A stretch of 64,000 nt of DNA from Escherichia phage KarlSchell_Bas89. The stretch lies in the sequence record PQ850613.1. The stretch is one strand, 5' to 3'. How positions within the stretch are numbered: position 1 is the stretch's first letter; every line of letters starts with the position of its first letter. Below, one piece after another: positions 10,112-57,086 of this stretch. The position numbers were made by a program, and so were the translations under genes. Below the pieces are notes generated by a model. It did not search any database and had not been told where the DNA came from. It saw only the letters and a program-made list of their open reading frames with translations.

Positions 10112-11776
10112 ATGCAACAAACTTCATATGCGTACCTCCGTAGTCGAGACCCACGCAATCAGATTTATGGTGTAAATCAGGGAGGGGTGCAAGCCTCTCC
10201 TTATATTCCTCGTCCTGCTTACCCACAAGCAGATATGTCTGTTTATACCCGTCCTAGTATGGCTCCTGCTGGATTAGCTGGGCTGGTTTCTCAGGCTAAT
10301 GAAGATCAAGAAGCAATGCTTGGTCCAAACAAACAAGTTGTTCAGGGTGCTAACATCCAACCTGATATCCCCAACGAAACTCCTGTAGCAGCCTCTCAGT
10401 CAGCTTCTCCGTTTGTTAACGATGAAAGCATGGTTGCTGCTGGCCTTTCTCCAGAAACTGCTTCTCAAGAGTTCTCAGACCCTCTACCGGTAAGTGCTCC
10501 TCCTAAACCGTTGGAACCTACTGATACAGAGTTTACTCAAGACCAAGTTAAACAGGCACAACAGGTTATGTCAACCCTTTCTTCCGGTTTACCTGAAGCT
10601 GAAGGTATGGCAGGTGCTTCTCGTAGCGCTGACCAAGAACGTGTTAACAAAGATTTAATGGAAGTGGCTAAGGCTAAGAACCCGATGGAAGAGTGGGGTA
10701 AGTTACAGAAACAACCTTTCTATCAGAACTCTAGCTTCTATACAGGTTTGATGGGTGTAGGTCTTTCTATTATGTCAGGTAAGTCTCCTATTGAAGCTTT
10801 CCAGATTGGCTCTGGTATGGCTGCACAGGATGAAACTAAGAATCAGCTTGAAGCTAACCGTGAATCTCTGATTGAACAGGGTTATTCTCCAGACTCAGTT
10901 GCTGCTGCAATTGCTACTGGTGATCCTTCTGCTCTGAAGATGCGTCAGATTAGCCCTCAAGAGAAACTTGCTTTGTCTGCTATTGAAGATGAAAGAGCTA
11001 ACCGTGAATGGGACAGACGCCAACAGATTAGTGAACAGTCTATGAGTCGTAGGATGGATGCAACTCGCCAAGCTGCTGAACAACGTGTACAAGAACAGTT
11101 TGCTCGTCAGAAAGAGTTGATTGGGTATCGTGATCAAGTAAAAGCTGATCGTGCTGAGAAAGCTGCTCAGAGTTTTAATTTTAATCCGAAAGAAGTTCGT
11201 CTTGCTCAGAACACAGCTGAAGGTACAGTTGCTAAGCAGTGGGCAGAGAAAGGTGGTCTGTTTAACCAGTCTCATAAAGACTTGGATTTGGCAGATCAGG
11301 CAGTTAAAGATAAAGACTATCAGACAGCTCGTTCTGCTTACATGCAGGCTATCATGAACTCCGCAAGGGCTGAAATCGGTGCTACTCGTTCTCTGACCGA
11401 AGAAGACTTACGTCACTTTGCAGAAGACCCATCAATCTTTGTTAAGGTTGGTAATACTTGGTCTCTGAAAGGTGGGTATCGTCCTACTGATGCTGCTCTT
11501 GCTTATGCTCGTAAACAGGCAACCGTTGGTGCTACTTCAGCGATGAAGGGTGTTAAGGATGCTAAGAAAGCAACCATCGAAGCTTACGTTGGTTCTGGTA
11601 TGGATAAGAAACGTGCTACTGCACTTGTTAACCGTGCTATACCTTCTGGTGGTTTCTATGACCCATTAGGTACATTTGAATCACAAGCTGAGGAAGAGGT
11701 TGGTGGTGCTGCTACTAATCCACGTCTGAATGGTGCTCTTTCAGCTTCTGAAGACACTAGCTGGTTTACTCAATAA
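10112..11776 (+). CDS. hypothetical virion (internal/ejection?) protein
   Basis: ATG at 10112 with AGGAG upstream (track start 10049 probably too early); 555 aa. Confidence 0.5.
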   Translation: MQQTSYAYLRSRDPRNQIYGVNQGGVQASPYIPRPAYPQADMSVYTRPSMAPAGLAGLVSQANEDQEAMLGPNKQVVQGANIQPDIPNETPVAASQSASPFVNDESMVAAGLSPETASQEFSDPLPVSAPPKPLEPTDTEFTQDQVKQAQQVMSTLSSGLPEAEGMAGASRSADQERVNKDLMEVAKAKNPMEEWGKLQKQPFYQNSSFYTGLMGVGLSIMSGKSPIEAFQIGSGMAAQDETKNQLEANRESLIEQGYSPDSVAAAIATGDPSALKMRQISPQEKLALSAIEDERANREWDRRQQISEQSMSRRMDATRQAAEQRVQEQFARQKELIGYRDQVKADRAEKAAQSFNFNPKEVRLAQNTAEGTVAKQWAEKGGLFNQSHKDLDLADQAVKDKDYQTARSAYMQAIMNSARAEIGATRSLTEEDLRHFAEDPSIFVKVGNTWSLKGGYRPTDAALAYARKQATVGATSAMKGVKDAKKATIEAYVGSGMDKKRATALVNRAIPSGGFYDPLGTFESQAEEEVGGAATNPRLNGALSASEDTSWFTQ

Positions 11777-11796
11777 GACCTAAGTCCTGCCTTCTA

Positions 11797-11805
11797 TAAT
11801 GTATA
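11797..11805 (+). promoter_or_regulatory. TAATGTATA promoter-like element
   Basis: Exact 9-mer 37 nt upstream of the 11842 start codon; same 9-mer and spacing upstream of a minus-strand gene at 29201. Confidence 0.45.
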
Positions 11806-11841
11806 TAGGGGGTAGGACATTTTTATTTATAAGGAGACGTT

Positions 11842-14800: not shown

Positions 14801-16263
14801 CTAACAAGAACTCTCAGTATGAGGCAGCAGCTAAACATCTACAGGCTCGTGAAGAGCGTCTTACCTCTTTACGTAACAGAGCAGAAGCTCGTGCTCAAGC
14901 GAAAGCTACAGCAGAAGCTGAACGTCAGTCACTCGAAGCTATTGCTGGTCAGAAGACTGAGATAGAGAAGATGTTTGATGAGTTACCTAAACCTGTCCGC
15001 GAGGCTCAGGAAAGCCGTACTCTGAAACAGCTTGCAGCTCACCACGATAAGAACTCCCCTGTTCCTCCAGAACGTTTCCGTAGTATTATCGAACGTATCC
15101 ATAACGCAGAGTCCGACTACCTTGATCGTAAGCGTCGTCTCACTGATGCAGAGGAAGATGCTCGTGAAGCTAAGTGGAACAAGATGTATGAACAAGCAGA
15201 GGAGATGAACCGTAAATTCGATATAGATGCTCGCGTGTCCCGTGATAAGAGCCTCAAAGAAGCTCAGGAGCGACAGAATGATCTCATGGCAGTACAACGC
15301 CAACGTGATGACATTCACAGCCGTCTGGTGCGTTCTATCGAAGATAAGGGCATCCCTAAAGCTGATGCTGAAGCATTTGCTGGTTCTTATATGGATAACC
15401 GTTATGCTCTTCTTGAAAAACCTATGACCCCTACCGAGCATCAGAATGCTCGTGCACGTATTGAGTCCGATGTAGAGAAGTTTGCTAAGAAGTATGAAAG
15501 CTTGTCTCCTATCGAGAAAGACGTGGTTAAGATTACTGGTGATGTGGAAGGTAAACTGGATGGGTTGGATGCTGAGACTATGAAGGCAGTTGAGGAAGCT
15601 AGGAAGGTTGACTCTGATATTAAGAAACTTCAGGATGAAGAGTTGGAAATGGAGAAAGTCCGTTCAGCTTTACCTGATGATGAAAAGTCTCAGGCAAATT
15701 CCGACATTCTGGAAAGCATTAAAAAGCAAGAAGATGAGTTTGCAGGAAAGGTTGAGAAGGCATTCTTGGAAGGCAAGGACTTGAAGGAATTGGCTAGTGT
15801 TGCAGAGGTTCTGGATAGGGTTCATGGTGCTGACAAGGCTGGGAACAACCGTAGATTTGTTCGTGCTCTACAGACTGCTGCTGACAACAAGAATAAGTAT
15901 GGTGATAATCCGGTAGCTTGGTTTAGTGCTGATGATTACTCTGCTATTGCTAAACTTGGTGCTGCATCAGCGGGCGGTAACAAATCGAGAGCGTTGGAGA
16001 AGATCTTTGGTTCTACAGCAGATCAAGCTAAGGCTAAGCTTTTGGGGAGAGATGATGTAGCGAAGATTAGACGTGTGATTGAAGCGAATCCTGAAGTCAA
16101 GATTCCTTCTTACAAGACTACTACTCGTCAAGAGTATTTACAGTTCTTGGAGAAGTATAATGATGAAGGAGTGTTGAAAGTCAAACGTGGTTCTCTGTCT
16201 GACAGATTAGAAAGGAATAAGCGTCAAGCTAAACTCCGTGTTAGAGTTCGCTCGAAAGAGTAA
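11842..16263 (+). CDS. large (1473 aa) coiled-coil-rich virion protein (internal core/ejection-type)
   Basis: Long ORF with RBS AAGGAG; A/E/K/R-rich helical composition; last gene of the plus-strand structural block. Confidence 0.55.
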   Translation: MANIKSWEEASKSPKYMNATPEQQAQLREQYKAAGGTIPEDKPVQPQQEERGLVGEFAQGVSNAIESGGANIAASTARGLGGLVEMGENVLGSQTSYGKRIQDNAKQVLEKRMAGIEDGFGKTAGQYAGVAADIGLTVANPALAAGVIAGREAGRAYADQTPEEGEDKSVLDAALVGGANFAAQKILPGFTGTAESTLGRIGQSAASNAVAGAKGGALVGAAEAQNKYGDDTTLANVLEGAIDEGVAGAAYGGAIGGVHGAISRPSPQVFDKTPENVKTDISAEDEAIRNAKNADELREAYSQADTANTASALNLLDQNDFRITDAVAMDSPAAQRILNTDQTRAEKAASSLTERSNIPGLNPLASPSKVKGKAFADNEHNQKQAVAMKDAMADYTKDNTKALNDVLDNLDRELNDLRVRGDFTGSAIDIKNQTRNDRDFIDAYKNFYTEANRFKARDGEDFNNFVEKATELQKLADNVSPEMKKAIGGLKKLKGMPEGFNPIQDAFTLNNTAKLMSNQDRGWTTLTDDGFREASSPSFVMNTLGAAKYALNRFSSERARSQRARQQDSNSEAIRSLARGDLEVARARSAAAKAREEMEAEPVVDDVQFKTQADDQNQAGSEPSSPATVTEDFSPSPAPLTARDLVAQRRAIRQAEQRRAEEEAQAAQNAPVEPEAPAETLPTRNPLEERRVQEAEMEQQRAAEEAAKAPETSVEEPTAKAEPLPARAPKAPKEAAPEVKPATGVERLAAMSTAARQATKNRAERFARSLYTAGAKAKATAENFLAYKGDPKELMRRIRQEDQANNAARHEEMARNQLASQQGIAAAKSNRVRSAFSDWVKERGLPSEIASKALRAEERGLDGNVSSLDSLKRRAERMYQKERDDEFDRLYREALEENKAFDKKDAPKLKDQKAEFQSEIDSLLENEPLRPAQKDAMRKMMSDFVDGKFKAAEKAGREEALEVGQMKDLWDGFINTYNREVGMFNKANKNSQYEAAAKHLQAREERLTSLRNRAEARAQAKATAEAERQSLEAIAGQKTEIEKMFDELPKPVREAQESRTLKQLAAHHDKNSPVPPERFRSIIERIHNAESDYLDRKRRLTDAEEDAREAKWNKMYEQAEEMNRKFDIDARVSRDKSLKEAQERQNDLMAVQRQRDDIHSRLVRSIEDKGIPKADAEAFAGSYMDNRYALLEKPMTPTEHQNARARIESDVEKFAKKYESLSPIEKDVVKITGDVEGKLDGLDAETMKAVEEARKVDSDIKKLQDEELEMEKVRSALPDDEKSQANSDILESIKKQEDEFAGKVEKAFLEGKDLKELASVAEVLDRVHGADKAGNNRRFVRALQTAADNKNKYGDNPVAWFSADDYSAIAKLGAASAGGNKSRALEKIFGSTADQAKAKLLGRDDVAKIRRVIEANPEVKIPSYKTTTRQEYLQFLEKYNDEGVLKVKRGSLSDRLERNKRQAKLRVRVRSKE

Positions 16264-17212: not shown

Positions 17213-17465
17213 TAGGAACCAGAGGCTCTATATGGTCAATAGCCATTTCTTTAACAGGGTGATCATTGCCACACATAGCACATTGATAGTGCATTGCCAG
17301 CTTCCCTGTCTTGGGGTTTATCTTTCGTTCTGTTTGAGCATCTTTAAGAGCATCGAACATAGGCTTCCACTTCCTAGTCAGAGAGCGAATCCCTGACTTG
17401 ATGAAGGAGTTATATCGAGCTTCTGTCCAAGTGCCGCTACAGCGAGTCTTCTCAACCTTCGCCAT
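17064..17465 (-). CDS. His-Me finger (HNH-type) nuclease
   Basis: CAMCGNDHPVKEMAIDHIEP ... CKEPCHKTKT. Confidence 0.5.
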   Translation of the reverse strand: MAKVEKTRCSGTWTEARYNSFIKSGIRSLTRKWKPMFDALKDAQTERKINPKTGKLAMHYQCAMCGNDHPVKEMAIDHIEPLVPIDHEATWDEIIQRALVEKHGFQVLCKEPCHKTKTQEENNARKQFKKGNN

Positions 17466-17676
17466 AACCTACATCCATATCATCCTCCTGCCAAACTCTT
17501 TTATTAACACGGTGACTAACCTTGTCAGCTTTAGGGATACGACCAGTGCGTTGATCAAACAGTTGGTGTTTAATCTTCTGATCTTTACGAGTTTCACGGT
17601 TAGGTGCAGTTTCATCATAAGTACGGTAGTTGAATTTATTACCCATTATCAATATCCTTATTCCAAATTTTATCAA
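17452..17676 (-). CDS. hypothetical small protein
   Basis: ORF between two annotated genes; no motif. Confidence 0.25.
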   Translation of the reverse strand: MIKFGIRILIMGNKFNYRTYDETAPNRETRKDQKIKHQLFDQRTGRIPKADKVSHRVNKRVWQEDDMDVGYGEG

Positions 17677-25552: not shown

Positions 25553-26332
25553 AGTTCAAGCAAAGGCGCTACTCTTTGCTCCGTTCTCTTATGAACTGCT
25601 TACAGTTTCCTGTAAGATCGGACTATATCTTCATCTCCACCTTTACGTGCTGAGAGACAGGCGCTTCCGTAACACTTGTTACGTACTCCCTTCCGGGATA
25701 GTCTCTGAACTTTCCGTGACACAAACTTTTCTACATAGATCAATGAACTGAGCATCAGATAGTTTACCTTTTGCATTATTCACTTCCCAAGTTACCCATT
25801 GGACATTTCCAATTTCGTAACCTTTCGAATTATCCTTCCTATCTAAAGAAAGTTTATTCGGGTGTCCGCTGACGAAAGATAGTGAATCCCCTGTCAAGGC
25901 ACATTTGTAGTTTTGCTGAGAAAGAAGCTCGAATAAATAGTCTTGAGTAATCGTGAACTCAAAACCCCTTTCTCTAGCTCTGTGATGGGAGTTGTGATAT
26001 CTCTCACGAACCGCTCCACCCCAAGTTTGTCGATATTGTCCCATAGCAGCAGATGCTGCACTTCTGTTTCGACGTCTCCACTCATTTGAAGCAATGCGAG
26101 CACAATTTTTACATTGACATTGCTTTCCATCTTTACTCTTAGATGAATTATGGAAACTGTCGAGTGGCTTTTCTTCGCCACAGCTTGAACATATCTTTGT
26201 CATAAACACCTCCTTGTGTTGATGTTTATGTCACGGCTTAGCTGCTGATTGGCATATCTTTCGACTTAGCTTTCCAGCAATTCACCTGTTTTGCTTCTGC
26301 ACATTTCTATGCAGTGAACCAATTATTTAGTT
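25553..26332 (-). mobile_element. candidate group I intron carrying an HNH endonuclease ORF, inserted in polymerase motif B
   Basis: Upstream piece stops right after TFIYAF, downstream frame resumes at IDGAGD; about 780 nt between, containing an ORF with its own RBS; boundaries approximate. Confidence 0.45.
25679..26209 (-). CDS. HNH homing endonuclease (insertion-encoded)
   Basis: SLDRKDNSKGYEIGNVQWVTWEVN; own RBS AAGGAGG. Confidence 0.8.
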   Translation of the reverse strand: MFMTKICSSCGEEKPLDSFHNSSKSKDGKQCQCKNCARIASNEWRRRNRSAASAAMGQYRQTWGGAVRERYHNSHHRARERGFEFTITQDYLFELLSQQNYKCALTGDSLSFVSGHPNKLSLDRKDNSKGYEIGNVQWVTWEVNNAKGKLSDAQFIDLCRKVCVTESSETIPEGST

Positions 26333-27694
26333 AAAGGCATATATAAATGTCTTCGCATTGTCACGAGTAGGAAGACCAGCAAGTCTCTGGTTGTGGGAGT
26401 GGATATCACCTTCTAATAAAATGTCACGATACATAACAGCAGAAGCTAAACCACGTTCAGCCAATGCTTTCTTACCAGCGTTACCTTCTGCAATGGCTTC
26501 AGCAAGCATGTCTCTACACTCTTTAATGAGGTAGTGAGCAAGCATACGAAGCTCTAATCCAGAACCGTCATAACCTAAGAAGAGTTCTCTACCAGCTGGT
26601 ACATAATATTTATACAGACCTACCGGTTTGTCTTTCTTTCCGGGTTTTCCACGTTCGTAGATAACGTTTGTATTTTTTCGTAAGTAACACCCATCAGGGA
26701 TATTGTTGGTAATGATGAAAGGATAGTTATGACTATCATCTGTGGAGTAGTTAGATTGAAATAAACTCCTACACTCGTGACCAAACAAACCGCGAGAAGG
26801 AATATTAACAACAATGCGATGTTTAAAACGAAATGTCGGAGTAGCGCAGCTATTAGCTTCCGCTGAGAGTTTACCATCTGGACGTTCCTTATCAATCAGT
26901 CCATTAATCAAGCCTAGTCTGTGAGCCGCTACAACACGTCTCTTAAGCAGACTTCCCACTTTACCTAGATCACCCTCAAGACCTTCTTCAAGAGTCTCTT
27001 CGAGGTTTGTAGGAGCTGTGGGCCACTTGTTTGAAGTAGCTAATGCTCTCTTAATTTCATCAAAGGTTACAGGTTTCTTCCTGTTAGGGTTCAAACCTAA
27101 ACCAAAGACATAAGCCTTCATGTAGTTGACAGTTTTGTGACGGAAGTGCTTATCCAAGAACTTCTTGATATCAGCATCAACCATCTGAGCTGTCTGTCGC
27201 TCTTTCTCATTGCCACGCATCCAAGAGTTGTACCATTCTTGATACGTTCCACACTTACGCATGGCTCGCTTAATCTCAAATGTGTTCCAAGGCTTCTTAG
27301 ATGTATTAAATTCTGGAGGAAGAAAACCTTCATCCATCAGTGCTTCTTTAACTCGTGCATCCTTTGATGGGTCAAAGTCAACATACTCAACACAAGTAAA
27401 AGCTCCACCAATATCTTCTCTCTTTAACCCTACTCTGTCGCAATATAATTGAGGCCACTTCTGAAGAGCACCAGTCTTCTTAAAGGGTTTCATGTAAGTA
27501 GAGCCATCAACCCTCATCTTAGGTAACAGAGGAATTAATTCTCTGTCGATGTTAACGATAATCTCTCTGAGAAGGTGAACATACCACCGTGCATTCCTCC
27601 GATTAAAGTTGACACCACTCTTCGCTTGCTTTGAAATTATATCAGCGACAGTCATCTCCGTTAAGAACGGAAGTACATCAGGGTTCTCCATCAC
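26333..27694 (-). CDS. DNA polymerase (family A, T7 gp5-like), 5' segment of polymerase domain
   Basis: GYDGSGLELRMLAHYL (motif A) and LPTRDNAKTFIYAF (start of motif B) closely match T7 gp5 as recalled. Confidence 0.8.
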
Positions 27695-27706: not shown

Positions 27707-28084
27707 TTATCGGTATAGTAAATCTGTAAATGCTTGATTATCTGCTATTACATCCAAAGCCTCATCCGTGCTAGGAGTTTCAGCTTCTTCTACTTGGTAC
27801 ACAACCTCACGCACACGGAAAGCTCTTGCAGGAACCCTAAAGCCAGCATGTCTCTCCATAACATCTTTCTGAACCTGTGCAAGTTTCATACCCCACACTT
27901 CTTCATAAAGCTCTGGATGTTTATTACTAATAACTACATATTGGCGATGTACGGATTTCGACTCTCTGACCTTAGCTAGTAACTCATTAAACAGGTCTAA
28001 CTCTTCTTCAGAGAGTGCATCCACAATATCTTCCCACTTCTCTACACAGAAGCGGTGGGCATGTCTGATAGGTAATGGCATCAT
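27707..28084 (-). CDS. hypothetical protein
   Basis: ORF directly upstream of polymerase gene. Confidence 0.4.
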   Translation of the reverse strand: MMPLPIRHAHRFCVEKWEDIVDALSEEELDLFNELLAKVRESKSVHRQYVVISNKHPELYEEVWGMKLAQVQKDVMERHAGFRVPARAFRVREVVYQVEEAETPSTDEALDVIADNQAFTDLLYR

Positions 28085-28339
28085 TTACCCCTTAGGGAAA
28101 GGAAGAAGATTTTCTACTGCAACACGATAAACTTTTTCTACGTTTTTGTTTTTATAGGAGATAAACTTGCCATCAGCACCACGAAGAATTACATTAGTGC
28201 GAGCAGTCTTCGGGTTCTGGGAAATCTGACCAGCAATGATAGACGCATTAATCGCATTATCAGCGAAGTTAGCAAACTTCCACTTAACCAGTTTATTGGA
28301 AATTGAATCGATGATAGTTACAGTTTTTACGATAGACAT
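28085..28339 (-). CDS. hypothetical protein
   Basis: ORF only. Confidence 0.35.
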   Translation of the reverse strand: MSIVKTVTIIDSISNKLVKWKFANFADNAINASIIAGQISQNPKTARTNVILRGADGKFISYKNKNVEKVYRVAVENLLPFPKG

Positions 28340-28363: not shown

Positions 28364-28393
28364 TAAAAGAAAAGGCCACCCAAGCGGGTAGCC
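28364..28393 (-). terminator. putative rho-independent terminator (minus strand)
   Basis: GGCCACCC-AAGC-GGGTAGCC hairpin with A-rich run on plus side. Confidence 0.5.
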
Positions 28394-28398
28394 TCTGA

Positions 28399-28893
28399 TT
28401 AACTAGAGCTTAAAGCGTGTCTGATAGCTGTATGGCTTACACCAAACATCCTACCTAAAGCTCTTGTTCCAAACTGAGCAGAACCTTTGACATAAAGGTT
28501 TTTAACTCTTTTAACATCCTCTGTATTAAGTTTCATTCTAGGGTTTATGTTCCTGTGATGGCCTACATTAAGACCTGTATCAAAAGAATGTTGAACATTC
28601 TCAGAAGCATCTGCCCACTCTAGATTCTCAATACGATTATCACTTTTTACACCATTCTTATGATTTATCTGAGGTTTGTTTTCAGGGTTAGGTATGAAAA
28701 AGGTTGCTATCAACCTATGAGCTTTCCATGACCTCCCTTCAAAATAAACCCTAATATAACCTTTAGTGTCTAAGTGGCCAGCCTCTTTACCCGGATGGCT
28801 CTTATTCCACTTAAAACCTTTTGAAGATGACTCTGTGTAAAACAGACGACCAGAATCTCTATCATAAGAGAGGTAGTCGGATATAGGAATCAC
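28399..28893 (-). CDS. HNH homing endonuclease
   Basis: AHRLIATFFIPNPENKPQINHKNGVKSDNRIENLEWADASEN. Confidence 0.8.
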   Translation of the reverse strand: MIPISDYLSYDRDSGRLFYTESSSKGFKWNKSHPGKEAGHLDTKGYIRVYFEGRSWKAHRLIATFFIPNPENKPQINHKNGVKSDNRIENLEWADASENVQHSFDTGLNVGHHRNINPRMKLNTEDVKRVKNLYVKGSAQFGTRALGRMFGVSHTAIRHALSSS

Positions 28894-29201
28894 TGACTCA
28901 GCGCCCCCTTCCTTCCACCATTTGATTTTCCAGCTCGATCTCCACTTTTGCCGCCAGCTGAACGATTGCTGCTGACTGTCTCAACACGTAAATTGCTTGA
29001 CGCATTAGAGCCTCCTGATTTAATGGCTCGTTTGTGTCCGACATCTTTACCTTTGAGTGCAGATTTTCCAACGCGTTTCTCAACGATGCGACGTGCACGG
29101 TGGCGCTGAGCATCTCCGCTCTTACTTCCAACTCCCGTTTCACCTCTTGCGATGGCTGTACGTCTTTCTTGTGCATAATCTCTTTTAGCCTTATCAGTCA
29201 T
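28890..29201 (-). CDS. basic K/R/G/S-rich small protein (possible nucleic-acid-binding)
   Basis: Good RBS AAGGAG 8 nt upstream; TAATGTATA 37 nt upstream; a second ORF (28898-29176) is open in another frame. Confidence 0.4.
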   Translation of the reverse strand: MTDKAKRDYAQERRTAIARGETGVGSKSGDAQRHRARRIVEKRVGKSALKGKDVGHKRAIKSGGSNASSNLRVETVSSNRSAGGKSGDRAGKSNGGRKGALSQ

Positions 29202-29237
29202 TTACAACTCCTTAATATATCAGTGTACACTAAGGAG

Positions 29238-29246
29238 TATACATTA
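29238..29246 (-). promoter_or_regulatory. TAATGTATA promoter-like element (minus strand)
   Basis: Exact 9-mer on minus strand 37 nt upstream of 29201 start. Confidence 0.45.
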
Positions 29247-29259
29247 TGAGAGGGTAGCT

Positions 29260-30000
29260 TTAGTTGCCACCCTTCTCCATAGCTTTAACGATTGCTTTAC
29301 AGAAACCAGAACGAACAATGTCATCCGAGTCGCCATCAACAATATCAGCGAACTCGTACAGATCATGCTCATCAATGAACTCGGTAGCCCAAGTAAGACC
29401 ACTCTCCCGACCTTTCATATCGTGCTGGTTAGTGTCACCCATGCAGAACAGCTGGGATGTTTCACCCAAGCGGGTCATGATAGAGAATGCTTCATCTTTG
29501 GTTGTATTCTGGAACTCATCCACAATAACAATGGCATCATTGAAAGAGCGACCACGGAGGTATTCCAGAGGCACAAACTCAATATTCCCATTACCAAGCT
29601 GGCATTCATAAAAACCTTTACCATATCGCTGAGTAATCACATCAACAATAGGCATCAGGTATGGTTCGAACTTATCACGAAGCCCACCCGGAAGTAACCC
29701 AAGAGAATTACCCATGCCAACAGAGGGTCGGCTAATGATAATCTTTTGAATCTTACCACTCTTCAGTGCATCAATGACAGTAGAGGTGATGACGAATGTC
29801 TTACCACAGCCCGCAGGAGCGTCTGTGAACACCACTTGTTTAGTCTTGATAGCATTGAGTAGCTCAGATTGAAACTGATTCTGAGGGACCACTGGCTTCG
29901 CTAAAACAACCTCTTCATACTCACGCTTACCTTTCTTGGTGACTAAGGCTTCACGACGTAAATCTTTACGAGATTCTCTACGGGACTGTCTACGGCTCAT
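29260..30000 (-). CDS. phoH: PhoH-like ATPase
   Basis: Walker A DAPAGCGKTF and PhoH-like length/architecture. Confidence 0.8.
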   Translation of the reverse strand: MSRRQSRRESRKDLRREALVTKKGKREYEEVVLAKPVVPQNQFQSELLNAIKTKQVVFTDAPAGCGKTFVITSTVIDALKSGKIQKIIISRPSVGMGNSLGLLPGGLRDKFEPYLMPIVDVITQRYGKGFYECQLGNGNIEFVPLEYLRGRSFNDAIVIVDEFQNTTKDEAFSIMTRLGETSQLFCMGDTNQHDMKGRESGLTWATEFIDEHDLYEFADIVDGDSDDIVRSGFCKAIVKAMEKGGN

Positions 30001-38743: not shown

Positions 38744-38953
38744 TTACTTATAAAAACTTCGAATCATGTCCCAGATTTCTTCCTGCTGGACCCTAAAGAA
38801 AGCTAAACGTGTCGATGTACGTTCAATAAATTCTTCACTATGCTTTTCTCTATCTAGCATACTGACAAGCTTTTCATATTTATTGATCTTCCATCGCATT
38901 TTTAAATAGTCTGATTCTAGTGTCCTTAACCTCTGACACTCAATCAAATCCAT
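38744..38953 (-). CDS. hypothetical protein
   Basis: ORF only. Confidence 0.3.
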   Translation of the reverse strand: MDLIECQRLRTLESDYLKMRWKINKYEKLVSMLDREKHSEEFIERTSTRLAFFRVQQEEIWDMIRSFYK

Positions 38954-39372
38954 CAGTTATCCTCTGACAGATAAAGAGACCAGTCACCAGATTCAACCAG
39001 TTCATCTTGCTCTTCATCAATGTGATAAATCCAAGCAGTGACAGTTTCACCACTATCCAGAACCACTTCGATAGGTGTACGCTTATAGAAAGTGTGTGGG
39101 TTGTCATTACCACGATGCCCTTCCAGCATGTCATAAGCACCCTCAACACCGTCCATGTCAGTTTTAAACACTTCAACACGAACAGGTTTACCGTTACTGC
39201 TGTGTTCCAGAGAAACACTTGGGAAGTATGAACCACCGTAGCGGTACAGGTTGTAGTTTTCTTTAGTGAAACCTTCACCAATCGATTCAGCACCTGCACG
39301 AGCATTCACTCGGAAGTTAGCCTGACCAGTACGAAGAGAACCATAAGTTGCTACATAAATTACTTCTGACAT
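38953..39372 (-). CDS. gamma-glutamyl cyclotransferase-like (AIG2/GGCT family) protein
   Basis: N-terminal YVATYGSLRTG ... RYGGSYFPSV pattern. Confidence 0.45.
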   Translation of the reverse strand: MSEVIYVATYGSLRTGQANFRVNARAGAESIGEGFTKENYNLYRYGGSYFPSVSLEHSSNGKPVRVEVFKTDMDGVEGAYDMLEGHRGNDNPHTFYKRTPIEVVLDSGETVTAWIYHIDEEQDELVESGDWSLYLSEDN

Positions 39373-39443: not shown

Positions 39444-39626
39444 CTATGCTGTGAAGTTTTTGATTACACCGCAAATAACATCTGTTTCAAACGTACCCAC
39501 CAGAACATCGTCTCGGTAGAAGTTAATCGCCTTACCATCTCGGTTAAAGTGATCTGCTTCAATGAGCATAGATTGTACCTGACCATCTGGAGTGGAGGTT
39601 CGAAAGATGACGTTATACTGACTCAT
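39444..39626 (-). CDS. hypothetical small protein
   Basis: ORF only. Confidence 0.25.
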   Translation of the reverse strand: MSQYNVIFRTSTPDGQVQSMLIEADHFNRDGKAINFYRDDVLVGTFETDVICGVIKNFTA

Positions 39627-56865: not shown

Positions 56866-57086
56866 GATGCTTGATACCTTTGAATGTGTTCAATACGAGT
56901 GGATTGAGCAAAAGACGCTTTAACAGCCATTTCTTTAACTTCTTCTTTCCGCTGATTAACGTGTACAGTATCCCAATGTTTATGGTCACGACGTCGCTGT
57001 AATATCTTACTACACTTGCGATGGTTTCCAGTGCTGCGATGTTTCTCACAAATAGGACACTTGCCAAAATTATTACTAAATATCAT
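56862..57086 (-). CDS. small Cys/His-rich protein
   Basis: GKCPICEKHRSTGNHRKC. Confidence 0.35.
   Translation of the reverse strand: MIFSNNFGKCPICEKHRSTGNHRKCSKILQRRRDHKHWDTVHVNQRKEEVKEMAVKASFAQSTRIEHIQRYQAS

What the first reader, a model, noticed from the sequence alone, without database searches (positions are those of the whole stretch)
28890..29201. Two full-length overlapping ORFs in different frames on the same strand
Minus-strand ORFs 28890-29201 (103 aa, K/R/G/S-rich) and 28898-29176 (92 aa, helical) are both open across the same roughly 280 nt. The first has the better RBS (AAGGAG, 8 nt) and the TAATGTATA element 37 nt upstream; its composition is low-complexity. It is unclear which is translated, or whether both are.
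Basis: seen in the sequence. Interest (0 to 1): 0.35.

Follow-up and report, generated by a model that had tools for sequence, protein, structure and literature searches.

The report
One real gene, one shadow ORF
Only the 103-codon frame is a real, conserved phage gene (a small basic HNH-like protein); the 92-codon frame overlapping it is a by-product of that gene's amino-acid composition, so the finding is ordinary.

Summary
Both minus-strand ORFs exist as described. The window is a phiEco32-like coliphage. ORF1 (28890-29201) is the ortholog of phiEco32 gene 58. It matches PHROG 4590 (E 6e-40), has relatives in 260 phage records and at least 273 metagenomic clusters, and evolves at dN/dS about 0.13. 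It lies behind a TAATGTATA promoter that was mapped experimentally upstream of gene 58 in phiEco32. Its SU10 ortholog was detected by mass spectrometry.

ORF2 (28898-29176) is ORF1's +1 frame. It shows no protein-level constraint (dN/dS about 1.5), most substitutions fall at its second codon position, and it has no independent homologs. It is broken by stop codons in 26 of 41 dereplicated lineages that keep ORF1.

The frame is open because ORF1 has few Leu/Ile/Val codons, so only about 3.6 +1 stops are expected (observed 1; P 0.067; rank 8 of 94 genes). Stop-forming codons are no rarer where they would create a +1 stop than where they are harmless.

ORF1 most likely encodes an HNH-fold protein of the replication module; its activity is untested. 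By-products of the work: a conserved leader hairpin that masks ORF1's ribosome-binding site, and LUZ24 gp26, which appears to be annotated in the wrong frame.

The parts
28890..29201 (-). ORF1: the real gene, ortholog of phiEco32 phi32_58 and SU10_056. It encodes a 103-aa, 10.8-kDa protein with pI 11.5.
   Evidence: PHROG 4590 at E 5.8e-40 over the full length. tblastn finds relatives in 260 phage records, and the protein search finds 273 clusters. dN/dS is 0.13, and variable columns at codon positions 1/2/3 number 25/10/55. phiEco32 annotates this frame as phi32_58. SU10_056 was detected by mass spectrometry.
28898..29176 (-). ORF2: the +1-frame ORF inside ORF1, judged to be a non-functional compositional by-product.
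   Evidence: dN/dS is about 1.5 in Gordonclarkvirinae. No significant Pfam or PHROG match (best E 0.14 and 0.024). Only 3 similar clusters exist among 5.8 billion proteins; the two examined are +1-frame gene calls over ORF1 homologs. The frame is broken in 26 of 41 lineages, and there is no context-specific avoidance of stop-forming codons. Its ATG is the 'T ATG C' formed by the conserved frame-1 Asp-Tyr-Ala codons, and there is no good Shine-Dalgarno sequence at a suitable distance.
28959..29048 (-). HNH-like beta-beta-alpha core of ORF1 (residues 52-81: KDVGHKRAIKSGGSNASSNLRVETVSSNRS), containing H56, N66, N70 and N79.
   Evidence: H56, N70 and N79 are invariant in both alignments; N66 is invariant in the 35-sequence alignment and nearly so in the 63-sequence one. 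The AlphaFold2 model shows strands 52-56 and 71-75 and helix 76-81, with pLDDT about 76-82 in this region. Foldseek against BFVD matches small HNHc proteins at E 7.3e-5, TM 0.76. hhalign places the motif onto the HNH_3 catalytic region of the neighbouring gene.
29238..29246 (-). TAATGTATA, the single-element promoter recognised by the phage sigma factor (phiEco32 gp36 type).
   Evidence: There are 4 copies in the window against 0.56 expected, and 0 of 100 shuffles reach 4. PMC8948821 gives the consensus tAATGTAtA, places the transcription start 6-8 bp downstream, and lists gene 58 among the six phiEco32 genes behind identified gp36-dependent promoters. The element is conserved in 18 of 20 relatives.
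29207..29238 (-). Leader hairpin: 13-bp stem with 5' arm at 29238-29226 and 3' arm at 29219-29207, including a perfect ACTCCTTA/TAAGGAGT repeat. It pairs ORF1's Shine-Dalgarno sequence (AAGGAG, 29213-29208).
   Evidence: Read-through RNA folds at -16.1 kcal/mol (z -2.6) with the Shine-Dalgarno sequence paired. RNA starting at 29231 or 29229 is essentially unstructured, at -1.8 and -1.2 kcal/mol. The leader is nearly invariant in 18 of 20 relatives, and the only changes fall between the ACTCCTTA/TAAGGAGT repeat arms.
28399..28893 (-). Downstream free-standing HNH_3 homing endonuclease (164 aa). Its GTG start overlaps ORF1's stop codon (GTGA).
   Evidence: Pfam HNH_3 at E 4.7e-11 and PHROG 59 at E 3.4e-32. 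It is present after the ORF1 ortholog in 4E8, E20-1, EcoN5, YF01 and SGF2, and absent in phiEco32, EP335, IME267, SU7 and SU10, so it behaves as a mobile insertion.
28371..28396 (-). Terminator-like hairpin that closes the ORF1 plus homing-endonuclease unit.
   Evidence: The scan finds an 11-bp stem with 6 GC pairs followed by a T-run. A terminator is annotated at the corresponding place in 4E8.

Best explanation
This locus encodes one protein. ORF1 (28890-29201, minus strand) is the ortholog of phiEco32 gene 58. It is a roughly 100-residue, very basic protein with an HNH-type beta-beta-alpha core, found in the DNA-replication modules of many unrelated phages.

ORF1 is transcribed from a phage-sigma (gp36-type) TAATGTATA promoter and translated from a strong AAGGAG site. 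That site is free in promoter-initiated mRNA but is predicted to be buried in a hairpin in read-through mRNA.

ORF2 is ORF1's +1 reading frame. A +1 stop (TAA, TAG or TGA) requires a frame-1 codon with T in the second position (Leu, Ile, Val or Met) that ends in A or G and is followed by a purine. ORF1 is rich in Lys, Arg, Gly and Ser and has only about 12 such codons, all ending in T or C within the overlap. The +1 frame therefore stays open passively.

What is shown: ORF1 is conserved and under purifying selection; ORF2 is not under selection; the ortholog's promoter was identified experimentally in phiEco32; the SU10 ortholog was detected by mass spectrometry.

What is inferred: the HNH fold (confidence about 0.75); a DNA nuclease or nickase role in replication or recombination (about 0.4, given Gly in place of the usual Asp before the catalytic His); and the hairpin switch (about 0.5).
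For: ORF1 is a real gene. It matches PHROG 4590 at E 5.8e-40, has protein-level relatives in 260 phage records across Escherichia, Pseudomonas, Vibrio, Aeromonas, Proteus, Salmonella and Cronobacter phages, and has 273 clusters in metagenomes. Variable columns at codon positions 1/2/3 are 25/10/55, and median dN/dS is 0.13. phiEco32 gene 58 lies behind an experimentally identified gp36-dependent promoter (PMC8948821). SU10_056 is the frame-1 ortholog at 10.83 kDa. It was detected by mass spectrometry with 2 peptides and 18.3% coverage, which equals the frame-1 tryptic peptides SGGSNASSNLR plus GETGVGSK (19 of 104 residues).

ORF2 is a by-product. Median dN/dS is 1.52 in Gordonclarkvirinae, and pN/pS is 1.2-2.9 in Bruynoghevirus. 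Synonymous divergence of ORF1 (pS 0.42-0.58 in all but the near-identical KBNP1711 pair) is close to that of the neighbouring phoH gene (0.53-0.63). The +1 stop count is 1 against 3.59 expected (P 0.067, rank 8 of 94), and for the LUZ24 ortholog P is 0.079 (rank 4 of 68), with a well-calibrated null. In 41 dereplicated lineages the +1 frame is open over at least 85% of the gene in only 15. NTA codons occur at 0.77x expectation where they would create a +1 stop and 0.83x where harmless; NTG codons occur at 0.99x and 0.79x. ORF2-like proteins form only 3 clusters among 5.8 billion proteins, and the two examined are +1-frame calls over ORF1 homologs.

HNH fold. H56, N66, N70 and N79 are invariant or nearly so. 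The model has a beta-beta-alpha core. BFVD matches to HNHc proteins reach E 7.3e-5. 25 of 35 family members give weak Pfam HNH hits.
Against: The +1 frame and its ATG are preserved in all 20 Gordonclarkvirinae sequences examined. The frame is also open in several lineages whose synonymous sites are saturated relative to each other: Bruynoghevirus L006, L012 and L036, and L046-L049 and L074. Family-wide, +1 stops are somewhat fewer than expected (140 against 189; 99 against 120 after dereplication).

A purine-rich stretch (AGGAAAGAGAG in most relatives, AAGG...AGAG here) lies upstream of the ORF2 ATG and could act as a weak ribosome-binding site. The SU10 proteomics search appears to have covered predicted proteins only, so it could probably not have detected an ORF2 product.

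On function: the window protein itself has no Pfam or NCBIfam hit, matches to solved structures are not significant (E at least 2.4), and Gly55 replaces the Asp that normally helps bind the catalytic metal in HNH enzymes.
Confidence: 0.9

Rival explanations
1. Both frames are translated. ORF2 would be a young, fast-evolving overprinted gene specific to Gordonclarkvirinae, translated at a low level by internal initiation at 29176. Independently, the +1 frame of the Bruynoghevirus ortholog would encode a small membrane peptide, as LUZ24 gp26 is annotated.
For: The +1 frame and its ATG are retained in all 20 Gordonclarkvirinae sequences. Resampling gives P 0.03-0.05 for the window gene and 0.002-0.02 for Bruynoghevirus genes when codon usage is taken from the flanking genes only. 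The Bruynoghevirus +1 product ends in a hydrophobic segment in L006, L012 and L036, and LUZ24 gp26 is deposited in that frame.
Against: The +1 product has dN/dS above 1 in both clades, and most substitutions fall at its second codon position. Synonymous divergence of ORF1 is not markedly depressed. With whole-genome calibration the genes are not outliers (P 0.067 and 0.079). There is no at-risk-specific avoidance of stop-forming codons. The frame is broken in 26 of 41 lineages, including some that are closer to the window than Bruynoghevirus is. In L007 the hydrophobic tail is interrupted by a stop. ORF2 has no independent homologs.
Confidence: 0.05
2. ORF2 is the real gene, and ORF1 is a spurious low-complexity ORF.
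For: ORF1 is rich in Lys, Arg, Gly and Ser and looks low-complexity. ORF2 has a more ordinary composition (pI 6.8). Gene callers chose the +1 frame on two examined metagenomic contigs and in LUZ24.
Against: Only ORF1 is conserved across distant phages. Only ORF1 shows purifying selection. Only ORF1 has the strong ribosome-binding site directly behind the promoter. The frame-1 product was detected by mass spectrometry in SU10.
Confidence: 0.005
3. The +1 frame is kept open because ribosomes shift from ORF1 into it by programmed +1 frameshifting, producing a fusion protein.
For: The mild family-wide deficit of +1 stops, and the fact that ORF2 ends only 8 nt before ORF1's stop codon.
Against: Reading the sequence shows no recognisable +1 shift site, meaning a rare or stop codon preceded by a slippery codon. 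The stop deficit is the same in harmless contexts. The frame is broken in most lineages. The C-terminal half of frame 1, which holds the HNH motif, is the most conserved part and would be lost in any fusion.
Confidence: 0.01

Closest known systems
phiEco32 gene 58 (phi32_58, YP_001671803.1) / SU10_056 / PHROG 4590
   Same: Same frame, about 86% protein identity and the same position between phoH and the DNA polymerase gene. The TAATGTATA promoter and leader are also shared. SU10_056 was detected by mass spectrometry.
   Different: This window has the MTDK N-terminus of the KBNP1711/EP335 type. It also carries an HNH_3 homing endonuclease directly downstream, which phiEco32 and SU10 lack.
Small stand-alone HNH (HNHc) nucleases of phages, and the Gme HNH nicking endonuclease (PDB 4h9d)
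   Same: Similar size of about 70-105 residues, a beta-beta-alpha core, and His, Asn and Asn at the canonical positions. BFVD matches reach E 7e-5 and TM 0.76, and 4h9d is the top PDB hit.
   Different: The protein has no zinc-binding cysteines. In this clade Gly replaces the Asp before the catalytic His. It falls below the Pfam and NCBIfam thresholds, the PDB matches are not significant, and it carries a distinctive conserved N-terminal RGETGxGSxSGDAxRHRARR segment. It lies in the replication module, not next to the terminase.
Shadow ORFs: long alternative-frame ORFs inside genes with skewed composition, as opposed to true overprinted phage genes
   Same: The alternative frame is open across almost the whole gene, its sequence is fully determined by the primary frame, its dN/dS is above 1, and it is sometimes picked up by gene callers.
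   Different: Unlike true overprinted pairs, it shows no constraint on the second frame, no depression of synonymous rate, and no persistence across the family.
T4-type translational activation by late or middle promoters located inside an RBS-masking hairpin (T4 genes e, soc and 49; recalled from established literature, not re-read here)
   Same: The predicted hairpin pairs the Shine-Dalgarno sequence in read-through RNA. The phage promoter overlaps the 5' arm, so promoter-initiated RNA lacks that arm and is unstructured.
   Different: The transcription start was not mapped in this phage, and read-through transcription and differential translation are untested. The promoter type is a single-element phage-sigma promoter, not a T4 late promoter.

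Membership tests
Functional overlapping (dual-coding or overprinted) gene pair | Both frames are open over the shared stretch in the genome itself. | tested here: met
   ORF1 is 103 aa and ORF2 is 92 aa, with ORF2 in the +1 frame.
Functional overlapping (dual-coding or overprinted) gene pair | The second frame stays open in relatives more than composition predicts. | tested here: not met
   The frame is open over at least 85% of the gene in 15 of 41 dereplicated lineages and broken in 26. Stop-forming NTA codons occur at 0.77x expectation in at-risk contexts and 0.83x in safe contexts; NTG codons at 0.99x and 0.79x. The gene ranks 8th of 94 in the window for +1 stop deficit (P 0.067).
Functional overlapping (dual-coding or overprinted) gene pair | Purifying selection acts on the product of the second frame. 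| tested here: not met
   Median dN/dS for the +1 frame is 1.52 in Gordonclarkvirinae, and pN/pS is 1.2-2.9 in Bruynoghevirus. The most variable position is the second codon position of the +1 frame.
Functional overlapping (dual-coding or overprinted) gene pair | The synonymous rate of the primary frame is depressed within the overlap. | tested here: not met
   pS for ORF1 is 0.42-0.58 against 0.53-0.63 for the adjacent phoH gene in the same genome pairs. This is at most a slight reduction.
Functional overlapping (dual-coding or overprinted) gene pair | The second frame has its own translation-initiation signals. | tested here: inconclusive
   The ATG is conserved, but frame-1 Tyr-Ala (TAT G) largely forces it. 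Only a weak purine-rich stretch lies upstream, with AAGG 12 nt away and no consensus Shine-Dalgarno sequence at 5-9 nt.
Functional overlapping (dual-coding or overprinted) gene pair | The second product is detected. | not testable with these tools
   The SU10 proteomics appears to have searched predicted proteins only. No ribosome-profiling data were found.
phi32_58 / PHROG 4590 family | Full-length sequence match to the family profile. | tested here: met
   E 5.8e-40, with residues 4-100 aligned to profile positions 3-99 of 100. Identity to Gordonclarkvirinae orthologs is 85-98%.
phi32_58 / PHROG 4590 family | Conserved genomic position and promoter. | tested here: met
   The gene lies between phoH and the DNA polymerase gene, as in phiEco32, 4E8 and SU10. 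The TAATGTATA promoter and leader are conserved in 18 of 20 relatives. The gene-58 promoter was identified experimentally in phiEco32.
HNH (beta-beta-alpha-Me) nuclease superfamily | Beta-hairpin plus helix core fold. | tested here: met
   The AlphaFold2 model shows strands 52-56 and 71-75 and helix 76-81. BFVD matches to HNHc proteins have E 7.3e-5 to 7e-3, with TM up to 0.76. About 20 of the 30 PDB hits are HNH nucleases, but none is significant.
HNH (beta-beta-alpha-Me) nuclease superfamily | Catalytic His at the end of strand 1, plus the structural Asn and the metal-ligand Asn or His in the helix. | tested here: met
   H56, N70 and N79 are invariant, and N66 is invariant or nearly so, in alignments of 35 and 63 sequences. 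The motif aligns onto the HNH_3 catalytic region of the neighbouring endonuclease.
HNH (beta-beta-alpha-Me) nuclease superfamily | An acidic or His residue immediately before the catalytic His (the DH or HH motif, a metal ligand). | tested here: not met
   The window protein and its close Gordonclarkvirinae orthologs read V-G-H, whereas nearly all other family members read V-D-H. Activity may therefore be altered or lost in this clade.
HNH (beta-beta-alpha-Me) nuclease superfamily | Score above the curated family thresholds (Pfam PF01844, PF13392; NCBIfam). | tested here: not met
   The window protein has no hits at E up to 1. Relatives give only weak hits: PF01844 in 25 of 35 (best E 0.0015) and HNH_3 in 9 of 35 (best E 7.5e-5).
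HNH (beta-beta-alpha-Me) nuclease superfamily | Metal-dependent nuclease activity. | not testable with these tools
   This requires purified protein.
RBS-masking hairpin opened by an internal phage promoter (T4 e / soc / 49 type) | The Shine-Dalgarno sequence is paired in the upstream-initiated transcript and free in the promoter-initiated transcript. | tested here: met
   This is a prediction only. The read-through RNA folds at -16.1 kcal/mol with the Shine-Dalgarno sequence paired, while RNA starting 7-9 nt past the promoter element folds at -1.8 or -1.2 kcal/mol.
RBS-masking hairpin opened by an internal phage promoter (T4 e / soc / 49 type) | The transcription start lies inside or after the 5' arm, read-through transcripts exist, and translation differs between the two RNAs. 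| not testable with these tools
   The start site is inferred from the 6-8 bp spacing published for phiEco32. No terminator-like site is predicted between phoH and the hairpin. No expression data exist for this phage.

The most novel reading that the evidence does not exclude
The +1 frame is not entirely neutral. In Gordonclarkvirinae, and independently in Bruynoghevirus where it ends in a hydrophobic segment, it would be a very young overprinted gene whose product is translated at a low level. It would be selected only for being open, or for being hydrophobic, which would explain why dN/dS-type tests see nothing.
Probability: 0.04. Interest if true: 0.5.

Novelty: already known. Interest (0 to 1): 0.12.

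Why it matters
As posed, it matters little. The locus is an ordinary single gene, already annotated in relatives as a hypothetical protein, and the second ORF is a compositional shadow. The practical value is cautionary. Genes rich in Lys, Arg, Gly and Ser generate long same-strand shadow ORFs that annotators and gene callers sometimes choose; LUZ24 gp26 and two examined metagenomic gene calls are examples.

Three side results may be of modest use. First, the ORF1 family is a widespread HNH-like protein of phage replication modules that falls below Pfam thresholds and has no known function. Second, its leader appears to make translation depend on the phage-sigma promoter. Third, in this clade the family has lost the Asp of the DH motif.

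Tried and rejected
1. Bruynoghevirus resampling. A null based on codon usage from flanking genes only gave P 0.002-0.02 for the open +1 frame in Bruynoghevirus, which briefly suggested selection. Recalibration on the whole LUZ24 genome gave P 0.079, rank 4 of 68. The at-risk versus safe context control then showed only general codon bias. The idea was rejected.

2. ORF1 as the unidentified site-specific nickase of tf/LUZ24-type phages (nick motif TACTRTGMC; PMC3517423 and PMC11780129). [quoted passage not shown] No strand-specific, over-represented 8-10-mer was found. The idea is not supported for this phage and remains open for Bruynoghevirus.

3. A profile search of the family against PDB sequences found nothing meaningful (E at least 0.67).

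4. NCBIfam gave only weak IscB hits, which reflect IscB's HNH domain, in 9 of 35 members.

5. A search for a shared RBS-masking hairpin at the window's other three TAATGTATA promoters found none. The promoter at 11797 instead sits in the loop of a terminator-like hairpin.

It was repeated with database proteins only.

7. The primary phiEco32 transcription paper (Pavlova et al. 2012) could not be found in the library. The promoter information comes from PMC8948821, which cites it.
Full report
OBSERVATION. The ORF list shows two minus-strand ORFs at the stated coordinates: 28890-29201 (103 aa, ATG start) and 28898-29176 (92 aa, ATG start). ORF2 starts 25 nt inside ORF1, so it is ORF1's +1 frame. 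That frame is open for 99 codons, while the +2 frame has 10 stops. TAATGTATA lies at 29246-29238.

GENOME CONTEXT. The region is 78-97% identical in DNA to phiEco32-like coliphages of the subfamily Gordonclarkvirinae, with KBNP1711 and EP335 the closest. ORF1 sits between phoH (29260-30000; Pfam PhoH E 4e-56) and a 164-aa HNH_3 homing endonuclease (28399-28893; E 5e-11), whose GTG start overlaps ORF1's stop codon. phiEco32 annotates the ORF1 frame as phi32_58. All Gordonclarkvirinae records examined annotate that same frame.

WHICH FRAME IS CONSERVED. ORF1 matches PHROG 4590 over its full length (E 5.8e-40), whereas ORF2 matches nothing significant (best PHROG E 0.024). A tblastn search with ORF1 finds relatives in 260 phage records from many genera: Pseudomonas Bruynoghevirus, Vibrio ICP2-like phages, Aeromonas, Cronobacter, Proteus and Salmonella phages. 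ORF2 finds only the 98 Escherichia and Shigella records that share the DNA, mostly at 55-76% identity, where ORF1 is mostly 84-92% identical. In a database of 5.8 billion proteins ORF1 has 273 related clusters and ORF2 has 3. The two ORF2-like clusters I examined are +1-frame gene calls lying over ORF1 homologs.

SELECTION. Among 19 distinct Gordonclarkvirinae sequences, the variable columns at ORF1 codon positions 1, 2 and 3 number 25, 10 and 55. ORF2's most variable position is therefore its second codon position, the opposite of a coding signature. Median Nei-Gojobori dN/dS is 0.13 for ORF1 and 1.52 for the +1 frame. In Bruynoghevirus the values are 0.03-0.28 for ORF1 and 1.2-2.9 for the +1 frame, with 83 of 94 third positions variable. 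ORF1's synonymous divergence (pS 0.42-0.58) is close to that of the adjacent phoH gene (0.53-0.63) in the same genome pairs, so the overlap imposes no extra constraint.

WHY THE +1 FRAME IS OPEN. A +1 stop needs a frame-1 codon of the form NTA or NTG followed by a purine. ORF1 has only about 12 Leu, Ile or Val codons, and all of those inside the overlap end in T or C. With the protein held fixed and synonymous codons redrawn, the frame stays open for at least 92 codons in 4.8% of draws (2.8% with a context-aware model). Under a whole-window calibrated null, which reproduces the total count well (866 observed against 868 expected), ORF1 has 1 +1 stop against 3.59 expected (P 0.067). That ranks 8th of 94 genes. 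Five of the 94 crude genes have an alternative same-strand frame open over at least 80% of their length. For one gene picked out of about 90 because its alternative frame is open, this is what chance and composition give.

THE CLADE-LEVEL PUZZLE AND ITS RESOLUTION. The +1 frame is open in all 20 Gordonclarkvirinae sequences and in most Bruynogheviruses. It is broken by 1-7 stops in Aeromonas LAh_8, Cronobacter GAP52, E. coli phage PJNS034, Photobacterium PhCF1.2, Aeromonas BUCT695, Salmonella SE131, Cronobacter CsaP_009, Proteus 3H10_20 and Vibrio MJW.

A null based on flanking genes alone suggested P of about 0.01 per Bruynoghevirus lineage. Calibrated on the whole LUZ24 genome, however, the gene is not an outlier (1 stop against 3.49 expected; P 0.079; rank 4 of 68).

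I then sampled 79 further IMG/VR loci. Across 61 full-length homologs there are 140 +1 stops against 189 expected. After dereplication to 41 lineages sharing less than 80% nucleotide identity, the counts are 99 against 120, and the frame is open over at least 85% of the gene in 15 of the 41 lineages.

The decisive control compares the stop-forming codons in two contexts. NTA codons occur at 0.77x expectation where they would create a +1 stop and at 0.83x where they are harmless. NTG codons occur at 0.99x and 0.79x respectively. The mild deficit is therefore general codon bias of this gene, not avoidance of +1 stops. The hydrophobic tail of the Bruynoghevirus +1 product lies over the Gly-rich stretch of frame 1. 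I take it to be a by-product of pyrimidine-ending frame-1 codons such as GGT and GGC (my inference, not tested). It is interrupted by a stop in L007.

EXPRESSION EVIDENCE. PMC8948821 states that phiEco32 gp36-holoenzyme promoters have the single consensus element tAATGTAtA, with the transcription start 6-8 bp downstream. It lists gene 58 among the six genes located behind these identified promoters. The element occurs 4 times in the window against 0.56 expected. The copy at 29246-29238, together with the whole leader, is almost invariant in 18 of 20 relatives.

In phage SU10, CDS 56 was detected by mass spectrometry as a 10.8-kDa protein with 2 peptides and 18.3% coverage (PMC4281155, Table 2). 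SU10_056 is the ORF1-frame ortholog, with a computed mass of 10.83 kDa. The frame-1 tryptic peptides SGGSNASSNLR and GETGVGSK together cover 19 of 104 residues, which is 18.3%. Frame 1 is therefore translated in a close relative. ORF2's ATG is the 'T ATG C' produced by the conserved Asp-Tyr-Ala codons of frame 1, and it has no well-placed Shine-Dalgarno sequence.

WHAT ORF1 ENCODES. Alignments of 35 and 63 family members show invariant H56, N70 and N79 and invariant or nearly invariant N66, within the pattern V-D-H-x4-K-x-G-G-x-N-x3-N-L-x7-N. They also show a strongly conserved N-terminal segment, RGETGxGSxSGDAxRHRARR. The AlphaFold2 model (mean pLDDT 72; about 76-82 across residues 30-80) has strands 52-56 and 71-75 followed by helix 76-81, which is a beta-beta-alpha core.

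Foldseek against predicted viral structures gives significant matches to small 'HNHc domain containing' phage proteins (E 7.3e-5, TM 0.76), and most of the named hits further down the list are HNH endonucleases. Against solved structures nothing is significant, but about 20 of the 30 hits are HNH nucleases. The Gme HNH nicking endonuclease is the top hit, and colicin and pyocin cores superpose at 0.6-0.9 A over 25 residues. 25 of 35 family members give weak Pfam HNH hits, but the window protein gives none. hhalign places the family motif onto the HNH_3 catalytic segment of the neighbouring gene (E 0.047).

In this window and its close relatives Gly replaces the Asp of the 'DH' pair, and that Asp normally helps bind the catalytic metal, so activity may be altered. 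The gene lies in the replication module, near the DNA polymerase gene, in nearly all lineages examined.

My best inference is a small, basic HNH-fold protein that binds, nicks or cleaves DNA and acts in replication or recombination. Confidence is about 0.75 for the fold and about 0.4 for nuclease activity.

The idea that ORF1 is the unidentified nickase of tf/LUZ24-type phages found no support here. The literature still lists that enzyme as unknown, the tf motif is not enriched in the window, and no strand-specific over-represented word exists.

A SIDE FINDING. The leader contains a perfect inverted repeat, ACTCCTTA...TAAGGAGT, whose 3' arm is ORF1's Shine-Dalgarno sequence and whose 5' arm abuts the promoter element. 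RNA that reads through from phoH folds into a 13-bp hairpin (-16.1 kcal/mol, z -2.6) with the Shine-Dalgarno sequence paired. RNA starting 7-9 nt past the element is unstructured (-1.8 and -1.2 kcal/mol). This resembles the T4 e/soc/49 arrangement, in which only transcripts from the internal phage promoter are translated; I recall that arrangement from the literature and did not re-read it here. The switch is a prediction only. The window's other three promoters of this type lack such a hairpin.

VERDICT. ORF1 is an already annotated, conserved and expressed gene. ORF2 is a shadow ORF. Confidence is 0.9. The residual possibility of a young overprinted gene is about 0.04-0.05. Interest is low.

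Noticed in passing
window 29207-29246 (-): The ORF1 leader has a 13-bp hairpin containing a perfect ACTCCTTA/TAAGGAGT repeat. It pairs the Shine-Dalgarno sequence in read-through RNA (-16.1 kcal/mol). Its 5' arm overlaps the TAATGTATA promoter, so promoter-initiated RNA should lack that arm and be unstructured. The leader is nearly invariant in 18 of 20 relatives. This may be a T4-like device coupling translation to the phage-sigma promoter, and the phiEco32 papers I read do not describe it.
   Followed up: partly
L036 1501-1801 (LUZ24 NC_010325.1 15637-15937): LUZ24 gp26 (YP_001671899.1, 'contains transmembrane domain') is annotated in the +1 frame of the conserved HNH-like gene. The conserved frame (15637-15933, apparently with a TTG start) is under purifying selection and the annotated frame is not (pN/pS 1.2-2.9). 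This is probably a wrong-frame annotation. Phage Ka1 annotates both frames.
   Followed up: yes
window 28399-28893 (-): A free-standing HNH_3 homing endonuclease sits immediately after ORF1, with a GTGA start/stop overlap. It is present in 4E8, E20-1, EcoN5, YF01 and SGF2 and absent in phiEco32, EP335, IME267, SU7 and SU10, so it behaves as a mobile insertion at a fixed site. A terminator-like hairpin follows it at 28396-28371.
   Followed up: partly
window 29036-29038 (-), ORF1 residue 55: Gordonclarkvirinae orthologs have Gly (V-G-H) where almost all other family members have the Asp of the HNH 'DH' pair (V-D-H). This may be a clade-specific loss or change of catalytic metal binding.
   Followed up: partly
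window 11772-11835 (+): Another TAATGTATA promoter (11797-11805) sits in the loop of a strong hairpin (GTCCTGCCTTCTA...TAGGGGGTAGGAC, -26 kcal/mol in context) that is followed by a T-run. This looks like a terminator with a phage-sigma promoter embedded in it, just upstream of a gene with an AAGGAG ribosome-binding site.
   Followed up: no
window 56862-57086 (-), 38953-39372 (-), 17452-17646 (-), 39444-39626 (-): Other small genes in the window also have a +1 frame open over 84-99% of their length (for example a 74-aa ORF with 73 codons open). This shows that shadow ORFs are common among small genes in this genome.
   Followed up: no
window 26327-27694 (-) and 27707-28339 (-): The ORF at 26327-27694 looks like a partial family-A DNA polymerase starting at GTG, preceded by small ORFs. 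The polymerase may be split or have intervening genes, as in related phages. I did not examine this.
   Followed up: no
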